From Escherichia coli (lineage in GTDB: Bacteria > Pseudomonadota > Gammaproteobacteria > Enterobacterales > Enterobacteriaceae), in NCBI RefSeq assembly GCF_003334815.1, contig NZ_QOWO01000007.1: a stretch of 64,000 bases of DNA; one strand, written 5' to 3'. Position 1 is the first letter of the stretch; every line of letters begins with the position of its first letter. The notes under the pieces were generated by a model, which was not told where the DNA came from, did no database searches, and saw only the letters and a program-made list of their open reading frames with translations. Below are positions 40,513-41,513 of the stretch, one piece after another. The translations under genes were made by a program, and so were the position numbers.

Positions 40513-40528
40513 TTTCTTGCGTTATTTT

Positions 40529-40575
40529 CGGCACCTTTTATGTAGCGAAGGTGCCGGAATATATTCTCTTTTGTT
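40529..40575 (+). terminator. putative cysB terminator
   Basis: cggcacctt...aaggtgccg hairpin then T-rich tract. Confidence 0.55.
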
Positions 40576-40830
40576 ACTTATTTCTATACCGTGCACAATA
40601 TTTTTATCCCTCATATTTATAGGGTAAATTACCTGTAAAGTAGTGTCTAATTACCCGCCTCGCAAACTCCAGTTTTCAAATATCTATTTCAGGTCAAAAG
40701 ATTGAATTATTCACTGGAGACGATTCGTAAATTCGCTGGATTTTTGACTAAAGTTTCTTTAGGATTTGTCTCATCGTATGATTAATTACACCAATCGTTC
40801 AACGTCTTGCTGATAAGTGATGGCGATTAT

Positions 40831-40971
40831 ATGAGGTTAGCAATGCCTTCTGGAAATCAGGAACCCCGCCGCGATCCTGAATTAAAACGTAAAGCCTGGC
40901 TGGCGGTTTTTCTTGGTTCTGCACTTTTCTGGGTGGTTGTCGCACTGCTGATTTGGAAAGTGTGGGGATAA
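40831..40971 (+). CDS. ymiA: small single-TM protein
   Basis: 46-codon ORF MRLAMPSGNQEPRRDPELKRKAWLAVFLGSALFWVVVALLIWKVWG; name from memory, unverified. Confidence 0.55.
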   Translation: MRLAMPSGNQEPRRDPELKRKAWLAVFLGSALFWVVVALLIWKVWG

Positions 40972-40973
40972 CT

Positions 40974-41141
40974 ATGGTCGGTCAGGAGCAACTGGAGTCG
41001 TCACCATTATGCCAGCATAGTGACAATGAAACAGAAACGAAACGGGAATGTTCCGTCGTTATTCCAGACGACTGGCAACTAACATCGCAGCAGCAAGCCT
41101 TTATAGAACTGTTTGCTGAAGATGATCAGCCGAAACAATAA
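40974..41141 (+). CDS. yciX: small acidic protein of unknown function
   Basis: 55-codon ORF MVGQEQLESSPLCQHSDNETETKRE... starting 2 nt after ymiA stop; name from memory, unverified. Confidence 0.55.
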   Translation: MVGQEQLESSPLCQHSDNETETKRECSVVIPDDWQLTSQQQAFIELFAEDDQPKQ

Positions 41142-41513
41142 TTATCATCATTCTTATTACCCATTTTTAATGAATTAAAGGGCTTTTAATACACCGCAGC
41201 AATAACAGCTTGAGTTATCTCAACACAAAATAATAACCGTTAAGGGTGTAGCCTATGATCAACACAAATATGAAATATTGGTCCTGGATGGGCGCGTTTT
41301 CTCTGTCGATGCTCTTCTGGGCCGAACTCCTCTGGATCATTACTCACTGATCCTTGACCCCGCTGCGGCGGGGTTGTCATTTGCTTTGCCACAAGGTTTC
41401 TCCTCTTTTATCAATTTGGGTTGTTATCAAATCGTTACGCGATGTTTGTGTTATCTTTAATATTCACCCTGAAGAGAATCAGGGCTTCGCAACCCTGTCA
41501 TTAAGGAGGAGCT

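What the first reader, a model, noticed from the sequence alone, without database searches (positions are those of the whole stretch)
40831..41141. Tandem small-protein pair ymiA-yciX upstream of acnA
Two short ORFs on the same strand are separated by only 2 nt: a 46-aa single-TM peptide (ymiA) followed by a 55-aa strongly acidic peptide (yciX). A membrane peptide tightly coupled to a soluble acidic partner resembles small two-component modules whose function is unknown. Together with the candidate 31-aa ORF downstream, the cysB-acnA spacer appears densely packed with small genes.
Basis: partly seen in the sequence, partly recalled or inferred. Interest (0 to 1): 0.3.

Follow-up and report, generated by a model that had tools for sequence, protein, structure and literature searches.

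The report
Known ymiA-yciX small-protein gene pair

Summary
ymiA (40831-40971, 46 aa, one membrane helix) and yciX (40974-41141, 55 aa, net charge -9) lie 2 nt apart between cysB and acnA of E. coli. The 31-aa ORF downstream is ymiC. RefSeq annotates all three.

A PhoQ-dependent, low-Mg2+-induced promoter lies upstream of ymiA and none lies before ymiC. YmiA localises to the membrane and is detected by mass spectrometry. An RcsB box sits at the Salmonella ymiA transcription start.

New here:
- A yciX ORF follows ymiA in 53 of 54 usable loci from many Enterobacteriaceae genera, usually with its ATG 2 nt after the ymiA stop. The terminal Trp-Gly codons of ymiA (TGGGG) serve as its ribosome-binding site.
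- The yciX frame is never interrupted. Its last 26 codons are under purifying selection (pN/pS 0.31). The N-terminal half drifts, and net charge ranges from -10 to +5, so acidity is not a family trait.
- YciX is predicted to be disordered apart from one C-terminal helix carrying the motif IPxSWxL(T/S)xxQxxFI(D/E)xF.
- YmiA and YmiC look paralogous.

Function is still unknown. Verdict: real, ordinary, already known; low interest.

The parts
40526..40559 (+). cysB intrinsic terminator; marks the upstream limit of the ymiA transcription unit
   Evidence: Terminator scan. The hairpin is -19.6 kcal/mol, z -5.1. The stem is conserved in other genera.
40676..40759 (+). Conserved non-coding blocks upstream of the ymiA promoter (TCAAATATCTATTTCAGGTCAAAAGATTGAAT; GTAAATTCGCTGGATTTT; CTAAAGTTTCTT). 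Their regulators are not identified.
   Evidence: Alignment of 24 representative loci. This region lies within the stretch upstream of ymiA (~200-500 bp per construct; exact bounds not held) that gave PhoQ-dependent reporter activity (PMC11429745). No convincing PhoP box is present: matches have 3 or more mismatches, no better than chance.
40760..40773 (+). RcsB box TAGGATTTGTCTCA, overlapping the probable -10 (TAGGAT) and the transcription start (about 40773, by homology with Salmonella)
   Evidence: It is the only exact match to TN(G/A)GAN4TC(T/C)NA in the window. It is the reverse complement of the S. Typhimurium ymiA box TGAGACAAATCCTA, mapped at +1 to -13 of the TSS with log2 change -1.10 (PMC7913699). 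It is present at -81 to -83 from the conserved ATG in 52 of 53 loci.
40774..40830 (+). ymiA 5' leader, conserved at the nucleotide level (TGATAAGTGAT..CGATT.TATGAGG). It contains the TTG at 40807 that was used as the start in the 2014 GenBank record.
   Evidence: No significant RNA structure was found (z 0.14).
40831..40971 (+). ymiA, 46 aa as annotated. N-in single-pass inner-membrane protein with a basic cytoplasmic tail (RRDPELKRKAW) and a membrane helix at about residues 22-42.
   Evidence: ORF. RefSeq WP_001300896.1. NCBIfam NF000536, 96.8 bits against a cut-off of 30. Pfam PF22868, 5.6e-37. pN/pS 0.22. GFP-YmiA is at the membrane (PMC11429745). PRM mass spectrometry gives 1000-3000 copies per cell (PMC12529367). 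TetRP start and the peptide LAMPSGNQEPR (PMC4909307 supplement).
40833..40845 (+). GAGG Shine-Dalgarno (40833-40836) plus the invariant internal ATG (40843-40845), giving the 42-aa family core
   Evidence: M5 is invariant. M1 is AAG or ACG in 7 of 53 loci. Codons 1-4 show no third-position relaxation (0.07/0.10/0.12 against 0.18/0.10/0.45 for the rest). The NCBIfam model has 42 positions and matches residues 5-46. TetRP signal at this site was 0, 32 and 37 in three replicates.
40963..40976 (+). Coupling junction: the Trp-Gly codons TGGGGA act as the ribosome-binding site, followed by TAA stop, CT, then the yciX ATG
   Evidence: Junction sequences of 54 loci all carry TGGGG (or TGGAG), followed 5-7 nt later by the start codon of the next ORF. 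The ORFs overlap by 4 nt (L059) or 1 nt (L057) in distant relatives.
40974..41141 (+). yciX, 55 aa, a soluble peptide with a variable N-terminal half and a conserved C-terminal 26 residues
   Evidence: ORF. RefSeq WP_001297116.1. No Pfam or NCBIfam family. Syntenic ORF in 53 of 54 usable loci. 0 of 53 loci have a stop in this frame, against 34-53 of 53 in the four other frames counted from the forward strand and reverse frames 0-2. pN/pS is 0.72 for the N part and 0.31 for the C part.
41061..41138 (+). Conserved C-terminal module of YciX (IPxSWxL[TS]xxQxxFI[DE]xF plus an acidic/KKQ tail). The predicted helix covers residues 38-51 (41085-41126).
   Evidence: Alignment A2: W34, L36, Q40, F43 and I44 are invariant. 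AlphaFold block-mean pLDDT is 90 for residues 31-40 and 83 for 41-50; the rest is below 65. The motif is kept in the most distant profile hits.
41182..41384 (+). Match to Rfam STnc180; it covers ymiC and the terminator, so it is the 3' part of the operon mRNA
   Evidence: 198 bits against a gathering score of 50, full length.
41255..41350 (+). ymiC, a 31-aa single-pass membrane protein and third gene of the operon; probably a paralogue of the YmiA membrane segment
   Evidence: NCBIfam NF041484, 66.3 bits against a cut-off of 42. Epitope-tag detection (PMC6001520). Membrane localisation and co-regulation (PMC11429745). hhalign of YmiA against YmiC gives probability 91.8% and score 28.5, against 9.5 +/- 2.5 for 200 column shuffles.
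41355..41376 (+). Terminator-like hairpin ending the ymiA-yciX-ymiC unit. Its U-poor tail suggests it may be leaky towards acnA.
   Evidence: Hairpin -17.8 kcal/mol, z -2.6.

Best explanation
The locus is the known ymiA-yciX-ymiC small-protein operon of Enterobacteriaceae.

What is established or read from the sequence:
- One promoter about 60-70 nt upstream of ymiA drives a roughly 600-nt mRNA. The promoter is activated in a PhoQ-dependent way at low Mg2+. It carries a conserved RcsB-type box over its -10 and start site, which is a repressor position.
- The mRNA ends at the hairpin after ymiC.
- YmiA (46 aa, and probably also 42 aa, in E. coli) inserts in the inner membrane with its basic N-terminus in the cytoplasm.
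- Ribosomes finishing ymiA stop 2 nt before the yciX ATG, directly over a ribosome-binding site built from the last two ymiA codons. YciX is therefore probably made by translational coupling, in step with YmiA.

What is inferred:
- YciX is a mostly disordered cytoplasmic peptide. Its one conserved element is a C-terminal amphipathic helix, which is the likely functional surface.
- The helix is proposed to dock on a partner at the membrane. The partner could be the conserved cytoplasmic juxtamembrane segment of YmiA (and its paralogue YmiC) or a larger protein that YmiA recruits.
- The module would then act as a small-protein modulator of a membrane-associated target during Mg2+ or envelope stress, in the manner of MgrB, MgtS or PmrR.

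Status of each step: ORFs, conservation, junction, selection and the predicted helix are shown here. Transcription unit, PhoQ dependence, membrane localisation and YmiA protein detection are shown in the literature. Coupling, YmiA-YciX contact and the target are inferred.
For: - Anatomy and annotation.
- Pair conservation: a yciX-like ORF lies directly after ymiA in 53 of 54 usable loci from Escherichia, Citrobacter, Salmonella, Enterobacter, Lelliottia, Leclercia, Cedecea, Trabulsiella, Franconibacter, Buttiauxella and others. The same holds in three more distant contigs.
- Junction: TGGGG-stop-(0-4 nt)-ATG is conserved.
- Coding signature.
- Family extent: the YciX profile finds 69 cluster representatives. 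About 65 are stand-alone 20-100-aa proteins with the same motif; four large Q-rich proteins look spurious.
- Structure.
- Literature on the operon: PhoQ-dependent reporter upstream of ymiA and none upstream of ymiC, GFP-YmiA and GFP-YmiC at the membrane, and YmiA overexpression giving a long lag and longer cells (PMC11429745).
- ymiC lies in the yciX 3' UTR without its own promoter.
- YmiA is quantified by PRM mass spectrometry.
- The RcsB box sits at the Salmonella ymiA TSS with reduced expression, and is conserved in 52 of 53 loci.
- Weak support for a YmiA-YciX contact: YmiA tail charge and YciX net charge are negatively correlated (Spearman -0.37, p 0.006, n 53).
Against: - No experiment seen here shows that YciX protein accumulates in E. 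coli. The Mg2+ study considered only proteins of 50 aa or fewer.
- A fused YmiA-linker-YciX AlphaFold model gave no confident docking. pTM was 0.24, and block-mean pLDDT over the YciX helix region fell from 83-90 to 59-77.
- The charge correlation is not corrected for phylogeny and has counter-examples (Pseudocitrobacter, Leclercia).
- yciX is internally deleted in S. enterica subsp. arizonae while ymiA and ymiC stay intact, so YmiA does not strictly need YciX.
- ymiA and ymiC single deletions have no phenotype at low Mg2+.
- No PhoP box better than chance lies upstream of ymiA, so PhoQ dependence may be indirect.
Confidence: 0.55

Rival explanations
1. yciX matters in cis, not as a peptide. 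Its translation keeps ribosomes on the mRNA between ymiA and ymiC. This would protect the transcript from Rho or RNases, or set ymiC expression, and the peptide would be a by-product.
For: The N-terminal 30 codons evolve almost neutrally (pN/pS 0.72) with frequent in-frame indels. yciX is lost by internal deletion in S. arizonae without loss of ymiA or ymiC. No function or phenotype has been assigned. No evidence of YciX protein was found in the papers read.
Against: The last 26 codons show a clear protein-level constraint: pN/pS 0.31, and variability by codon position of 0.25/0.18/0.49. The other two frames of the same DNA give pN/pS above 1 and contain stops. Five residues are invariant and the same motif persists in relatives at about 30% identity. 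A pure spacer ORF would not keep an amino-acid motif.
Confidence: 0.15
2. The pair is a toxin-antidote-like module. YmiA would be a membrane-active toxic peptide and YciX, made in step with it, would neutralise it.
For: YmiA overexpression gives an 8-10 h lag that depends on its start codon (PMC11429745). Tight coupling would guarantee co-synthesis. YmiA tail charge and YciX charge are weakly anticorrelated.
Against: The same lag was seen for MgrB, MgtS, PmrR and YoaI, which are regulators and not toxins. YmiA is present at 1000-3000 copies per cell in normal growth. The locus is a fixed, syntenic core locus between cysB and acnA under purifying selection, not patchy or mobile. There are no hits in PADLOC or PHROGs. 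S. arizonae keeps ymiA without yciX.
Confidence: 0.07
3. The conservation of the 3' part of yciX reflects overlapping DNA signals, such as a distal acnA or ymiC promoter and its regulator sites, rather than the peptide.
For: From memory and not verified here: Cunningham, Gruer and Guest 1997 placed a distal acnA promoter about 400 bp upstream of acnA. That would fall near 41107, inside the most conserved yciX codons (TTTATAGAA). Rfam STnc180 starts at 41182.
Against: Third codon positions in this stretch vary about twice as much as first and second positions, and the frame is never broken. This is the signature of protein constraint, not of a DNA site. A reporter with the region immediately upstream of ymiC had negligible activity, and dRNA-seq shows no independent promoter there. 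Both kinds of constraint could coexist.
Confidence: 0.08

Closest known systems
ymiA-yciX-ymiC operon of E. coli K-12 (b4522, b4523, ymiC), as annotated in RefSeq/EcoCyc and studied in PMC11429745
   Same: It is this locus. The sequence is identical to many E. coli genomes, with the same three CDS, the same neighbours cysB and acnA, and the same family models.
   Different: Nothing differs. The present analysis adds the breadth of YciX conservation, the junction logic, the dual-start question and the YmiA-YmiC similarity.
PhoQP-induced small membrane-protein regulators (MgrB, MgtS, PmrR)
   Same: All are under 50 aa, single-pass, inner-membrane and induced at low Mg2+. The overexpression phenotype is the same (prolonged lag).
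   Different: Those act alone on known targets (PhoQ; MgtA and PitA; LpxT). YmiA has no known target and comes with a coupled soluble partner and a paralogous second membrane peptide. There is no sequence similarity.
Translationally coupled or overlapping small-ORF pairs such as mgtS-mgtT and yriA-yriB
   Same: Two small ORFs in one PhoQP-dependent transcript, with a stop and start within a few nucleotides.
   Different: Those pairs overlap out of frame. Here the ORFs are consecutive, with a ribosome-binding site made of the last two codons of the upstream gene, and the arrangement is conserved across genera.
Rfam RF02079 STnc180 (Salmonella candidate sRNA)
   Same: Full-length match at 41182-41384.
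   Different: The 'sRNA' contains the conserved, translated ymiC ORF and the operon terminator. It is better read as the 3' segment of a small-protein mRNA than as a non-coding RNA.

Membership tests
YmiA family (NCBIfam NF000536 / Pfam PF22868) | Score above the curated HMM cut-off | tested here: met
   NF000536: 96.8 bits against a cut-off of 30, residues 5-46 on model positions 1-42. PF22868: E 5.6e-37.
YmiA family (NCBIfam NF000536 / Pfam PF22868) | Single membrane helix preceded by the basic motif KRKAW | tested here: met
   K19, R20, K21 and W23 are invariant. Hydropathy peak 2.54 at residues 23-42. AlphaFold predicts a helix over residues 12-42 of the 42-aa form. Membrane localisation of GFP-YmiA is published.
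YmiA family (NCBIfam NF000536 / Pfam PF22868) | Position between cysB and acnA | tested here: met
   cysB and acnA flank ymiA in nearly all of the 55 fetched loci.
YciX (RefSeq 'protein YciX'; no HMM family exists) | Sequence identity to the named protein | tested here: met
   Identical to WP_001297116.1 as annotated in the matching genome. There is no Pfam or NCBIfam model.
YciX (RefSeq 'protein YciX'; no HMM family exists) | Conserved C-terminal motif IPxSWxL[TS]xxQxxFI[DE]xF and position directly after ymiA | tested here: met
YciX (RefSeq 'protein YciX'; no HMM family exists) | Protein product detected | not testable with these tools
   No report of YciX protein detection was found in the papers read. 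Coding selection supports translation only indirectly.
YmiC (NCBIfam NF041484) | Score above the curated cut-off | tested here: met
   66.3 bits against a cut-off of 42. Epitope-tagged protein is published.
Translationally coupled gene pair | Stop and start within a few nucleotides on one strand, conserved across species | tested here: met
   The spacer is 2 nt in the window. It ranges from a 4-nt overlap to a 4-nt spacer elsewhere.
Translationally coupled gene pair | Ribosome-binding site of the downstream gene inside the upstream coding sequence | tested here: met
   TGGGG or TGGAG lies 5-7 nt before the start codon in all 54 junctions.
Translationally coupled gene pair | Downstream translation depends on upstream translation | not testable with these tools
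   This needs reporter fusions with ymiA start or stop mutants.
PhoP regulon (direct target) | PhoQ/PhoP-dependent induction at low Mg2+ | not testable with these tools
   Published for the region upstream of ymiA (PMC11429745).
PhoP regulon (direct target) | PhoP box (T/G)GTTTA-N5-(T/G)GTTTA at the promoter | tested here: inconclusive
   Only 3-mismatch matches occur at 40745 and 40756. Matches of that quality number 199 in the window against about 149 expected by chance. A 2-mismatch box that binds PhoP in Salmonella lies in front of acnA at 41443-41459, not in front of ymiA.
Rcs regulon | RcsB box TN(G/A)GAN4TC(T/C)NA at the promoter | tested here: met
   Exact match at 40760-40773, the only one in 64 kb. 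Conserved in 52 of 53 loci at a fixed distance. The same box is listed for Salmonella ymiA.
Rcs regulon | RcsB binding and RcsB-dependent expression in E. coli | not testable with these tools
   Only Salmonella RNA-seq is available (log2 -1.10). A RegulonDB-derived table lists YjjQ, a related FixJ/NarL-type regulator, for ymiA.
Toxin-antitoxin or defence module | Match to known toxin, antitoxin or defence families | tested here: not met
   No PADLOC or PHROGs hits. No significant PDB relatives.
Toxin-antitoxin or defence module | Patchy, mobile distribution | tested here: not met
   The locus is fixed and syntenic in 5422 of 5426 E. coli genomes and across genera.

The most novel reading that the evidence does not exclude
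YmiA, YciX and YmiC may form one conserved three-peptide module. It would consist of two paralogous single-pass membrane peptides plus a stoichiometrically coupled cytoplasmic peptide, whose C-terminal helix (IPxSWxLTxxQxxFIDxF) is a short docking motif for a conserved cellular protein. The module would let PhoQP and Rcs signalling retune a membrane-associated target, possibly linked to the neighbouring PhoP-bound acnA. A small-protein regulator built from three co-evolving peptides has not been described.
Probability: 0.2. Interest if true: 0.45.

Novelty: already known. Interest (0 to 1): 0.15.

Why it matters
As handed over, the finding re-discovers annotated genes whose operon structure, inducing signal and localisation are published, so it opens no new question.

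The comparative results give a modest practical gain:
- YciX has no Pfam or NCBIfam model and is named only in Escherichia. Elsewhere its orthologues are 'hypothetical' or not called. A family model built on the conserved C-terminal motif would fix that.
- The invariant residues (W34, L36, Q40, F43, I44) and the conserved coupling junction give concrete mutational handles for finding the function of a small-protein module induced by PhoQP signalling (and carrying a conserved RcsB box) that is still uncharacterised.

Tried and rejected
- The word-indexed protein search with E. coli YciX found only Escherichia and Shigella sequences. I first read this as a genus-restricted orphan. tblastn on syntenic loci and profile searches then found orthologues at 30-50% identity throughout the family, so that reading was dropped.
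- From conservation alone I first concluded that YmiA starts at the internal ATG (42 aa). The TetRP table and the tryptic peptide LAMPSGNQEPR show that the 46-aa form exists in K-12. I now report both starts.
- The PhoP-box search upstream of ymiA was no better than chance.
- Pfam, NCBIfam, PDB sequence, PADLOC and PHROGs searches for YciX found nothing significant. The YmiA hit to a 45-aa AmoD chain (E 0.028) was set aside as unconvincing; it may reflect only membrane-helix composition, which was not tested.
- The AlphaFold model of YmiA-linker-YciX with paired orthologues showed no confident docking.
- The 5' leader showed no significant RNA fold.
- Fold search was not run, because a single helix gives meaningless matches.
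- The 91-99-aa YmiA-YciX 'fusion proteins' in databases are scattered single-base indel variants at different positions. They are not a natural fused form.
- Supplementary tables of PMC11429745 are not held, so the exact reporter fragment and Ribo-RET values could not be checked.

Full report
**What is there.** The window carries topA, cysB, a 1-kb spacer and acnA of Escherichia coli. In the spacer, on the + strand, there are three small ORFs:
- An ATG ORF at 40831-40971 (46 aa).
- An ATG ORF at 40974-41141 (55 aa), 2 nt after the first.
- An ATG ORF at 41255-41350 (31 aa).

RefSeq annotates them as ymiA, yciX and ymiC at exactly these positions. The spacer is present in 5422 of 5426 complete E. 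coli genomes.

YmiA matches NCBIfam NF000536 (96.8 bits, cut-off 30) and Pfam PF22868. YmiC matches NF041484. YciX matches no Pfam or NCBIfam family.

**What was already known.**
- A study of Mg2+-starvation small proteins treats ymiA-yciX-ymiC as an operon. A reporter with the region upstream of ymiA is induced at low Mg2+ in a PhoQ-dependent way, while the region immediately upstream of ymiC is inactive.
- In the same study GFP-YmiA and GFP-YmiC are at the membrane. Deletions are silent. YmiA overexpression gives an 8-10 h lag and longer cells (PMC11429745).
- ymiC was found by epitope tagging (PMC6001520). [quoted passage not shown]
- YmiA is quantified by targeted mass spectrometry at about 1000-3000 copies per cell (PMC12529367).

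**The promoter.** In S. Typhimurium an RcsB box, TGAGACAAATCCTA, is mapped at +1 to -13 of the ymiA transcription start, with a log2 change of -1.10 (PMC7913699). Its reverse complement, TAGGATTTGTCTCA, is at 40760-40773. This is the only exact match to the RcsB consensus in the 64-kb window. It is kept at a fixed distance from the start codon in 52 of 53 loci from other species.

The start site is thus probably near 40773, with TAGGAT as the -10 and the box in a repressor position. A RegulonDB-derived table lists YjjQ for ymiA, and a Salmonella study counts yciX in the Cpx regulon. I could not find a PhoP box upstream of ymiA that beats chance, so the PhoQ dependence may be indirect.

**Is the pair conserved?** A word-indexed search with E. 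coli YciX returned only Escherichia and Shigella. I fetched 55 loci around YmiA relatives from one genome per species and searched them with tblastn. This showed a YciX-like ORF in the same place in nearly all of them, at 33-60% identity outside Escherichia. The genera include Citrobacter, Salmonella, Enterobacter, Lelliottia, Leclercia, Cedecea, Trabulsiella, Franconibacter, Buttiauxella and others.

A profile built from these sequences found 176 database proteins, annotated 'hypothetical' outside Escherichia. It also found 69 cluster representatives in an exhaustive search. About 65 are stand-alone proteins of 20-100 aa; four large Q-rich proteins look spurious. The most distant small hits keep the motif IPxSWxL(T/S)xxQxxFI(D/E)xF. 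Where context could be read, a YmiA-like membrane ORF lies directly upstream, overlapping by 1-4 nt or separated by about 10 nt.

The exception is S. enterica subsp. arizonae, where yciX has an internal deletion while ymiA and ymiC are intact.

**Coding signature.**
- Across 53 loci, ymiA has pN/pS 0.22 and yciX 0.53.
- yciX splits into a weakly constrained N-terminal half (0.72) and a constrained C-terminal 26 codons (0.31). In the C-terminal part, variability at codon positions 1, 2 and 3 is 0.25, 0.18 and 0.49.
- No locus has a stop in the yciX frame. The other frames carry stops in 34-53 of 53 loci, and the two shifted frames of the C-terminal stretch give pN/pS above 1.

This argues that the peptide is under selection, not only the act of translating it or an overlapping DNA signal.

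**The junction.** In all 54 junctions the last two ymiA codons (Trp-Gly, or Trp-Ser in a few) read TGGGG or TGGAG. The stop codon and the next start codon follow 5-7 nt later. In most loci the ATG is 2 nt after the stop. The conserved C-terminal WG of YmiA therefore doubles as the ribosome-binding site of yciX. This is the classic arrangement for translational coupling, but coupling itself is an inference.

**The YmiA start.** Only the internal ATG at 40843 (Met5) is invariant. Met1 is AAG or ACG in 7 of 53 loci. Codons 1-4 are conserved at all three positions and contain GAGG 6 nt before Met5, which looks like a ribosome-binding site. The NCBIfam model has 42 positions.

However, tetracycline ribosome profiling mapped initiation to Met1, with signal 58, 30 and 26 in three replicates. 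Signal at Met5 was 0, 32 and 37. The tryptic peptide LAMPSGNQEPR shows that the long form exists (PMC4909307 supplement). Both starts are probably used in E. coli. The 46 aa of the finding is the current annotation and is experimentally supported.

**Properties of YciX.** AlphaFold with 31 orthologues predicts a disordered peptide with one helix at residues 38-51. Block-mean pLDDT is 90 for residues 31-40 and 83 for 41-50, and below 65 elsewhere. W34, L36, Q40, F43 and I44 are invariant.

Net charge ranges from -10 to +5 across genera, and only the C-terminal part is consistently neutral to acidic.

YmiA tail charge and YciX charge are weakly anticorrelated (Spearman -0.37, p 0.006). Phylogeny was not controlled for. 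A fused YmiA-linker-YciX model showed no confident docking (pTM 0.24). There are no relatives in the PDB, PADLOC or PHROGs.

**Best explanation.** This is a PhoQP-induced tricistronic small-protein operon carrying a conserved RcsB box that probably mediates repression. YmiA is an N-in single-pass membrane peptide. YciX is a translationally coupled cytoplasmic peptide whose conserved C-terminal helix is the likely binding surface.

I consider it most likely that YciX works at the membrane with YmiA (and YmiC) as a small-protein modulator of a larger target during Mg2+ or envelope stress. Neither the contact nor the target is shown.

The rivals are less well supported:
- A cis-only role for yciX translation.
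- A toxin-antidote pair.
- Conservation caused by an overlapping promoter.

The first and third run against the amino-acid-level constraint. The second runs against the core, syntenic, constitutively expressed nature of the locus.

**Verdict.** The additions made here are incremental: family-wide conservation of YciX and of the coupling junction, the conserved motif, the dual start, the conserved RcsB box, and the YmiA-YmiC similarity. Interest is low.

Noticed in passing
window 40843-40971 and 41255-41350: YmiA and YmiC, the two membrane peptides of the operon, share a motif (lKRkAW.aVFlgSalFW against KYWSW.GAFslS.LFW). Profile-profile alignment gives probability 91.8% and score 28.5 over 20 columns. 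For 200 column shuffles of YmiC the mean was 9.5, sd 2.5 and maximum 17.9. They look like paralogues. I have not seen this reported.
   Followed up: partly
window 41182-41384: The Rfam family STnc180, described as an enterobacterial sRNA, matches full length at 198 bits. The match consists of the translated ymiC ORF plus the operon terminator. The 'sRNA' is likely the 3' part of a small-protein mRNA.
   Followed up: partly
window 41443-41459: TGTTTGTGTTATCTTTA, the PhoP-binding site shown by EMSA for the Salmonella acnA promoter (PMC10294627), is present unchanged just upstream of acnA. Both the small-protein operon and acnA are therefore tied to PhoPQ.
   Followed up: partly
window 40831-40845: There are two in-frame starts for YmiA. 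Published TetRP signal is 58/30/26 at the ATG at 40831 and 0/32/37 at the ATG at 40843. The 2014 GenBank record used a third start (TTG at 40807, 54 aa), and many non-Escherichia genomes are annotated with a 53-aa form from an ATG that is CTG in E. coli.
   Followed up: yes
window 40893-40973 (yciX frame upstream of its ATG): The yciX reading frame is open for 26 or more codons upstream of its ATG, overlapping ymiA. Single-base indels therefore create 91-99-aa YmiA-YciX fusion ORFs. Dozens of such 'proteins' are in public databases, with the indel at different positions. One 16-nt deletion variant has 37 member sequences. Most are probably sequencing errors or sporadic mutants.
   Followed up: partly
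L037 3139-3230 (S. enterica subsp. arizonae CCUG 6322T): yciX is reduced to a 15-codon remnant plus the last few codons by an internal deletion, while ymiA and ymiC are intact. This is a natural yciX knockout.
   Followed up: partly
window 40513-41513, compared with NZ_CP049118.1: In E. coli strain EC931 an IS1A element is inserted in the cysB-acnA spacer: the match is split in two pieces spanning 1777 bp. Strain 102651 matches only the first 57% of the spacer at its best place, with a second place elsewhere in the record.
   Followed up: no
window 40676-40759: Several strongly conserved non-coding blocks lie upstream of the ymiA promoter, including the palindrome CTAAAG-TTT-CTTTAG at 40747-40761. 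No regulator is assigned to them.
   Followed up: no
L019 (Citrobacter sp. NCU1): ymiC is not detected, and acnA lies about 1.3 kb further from ymiA than usual, which suggests an insertion or rearrangement in the spacer.
   Followed up: no
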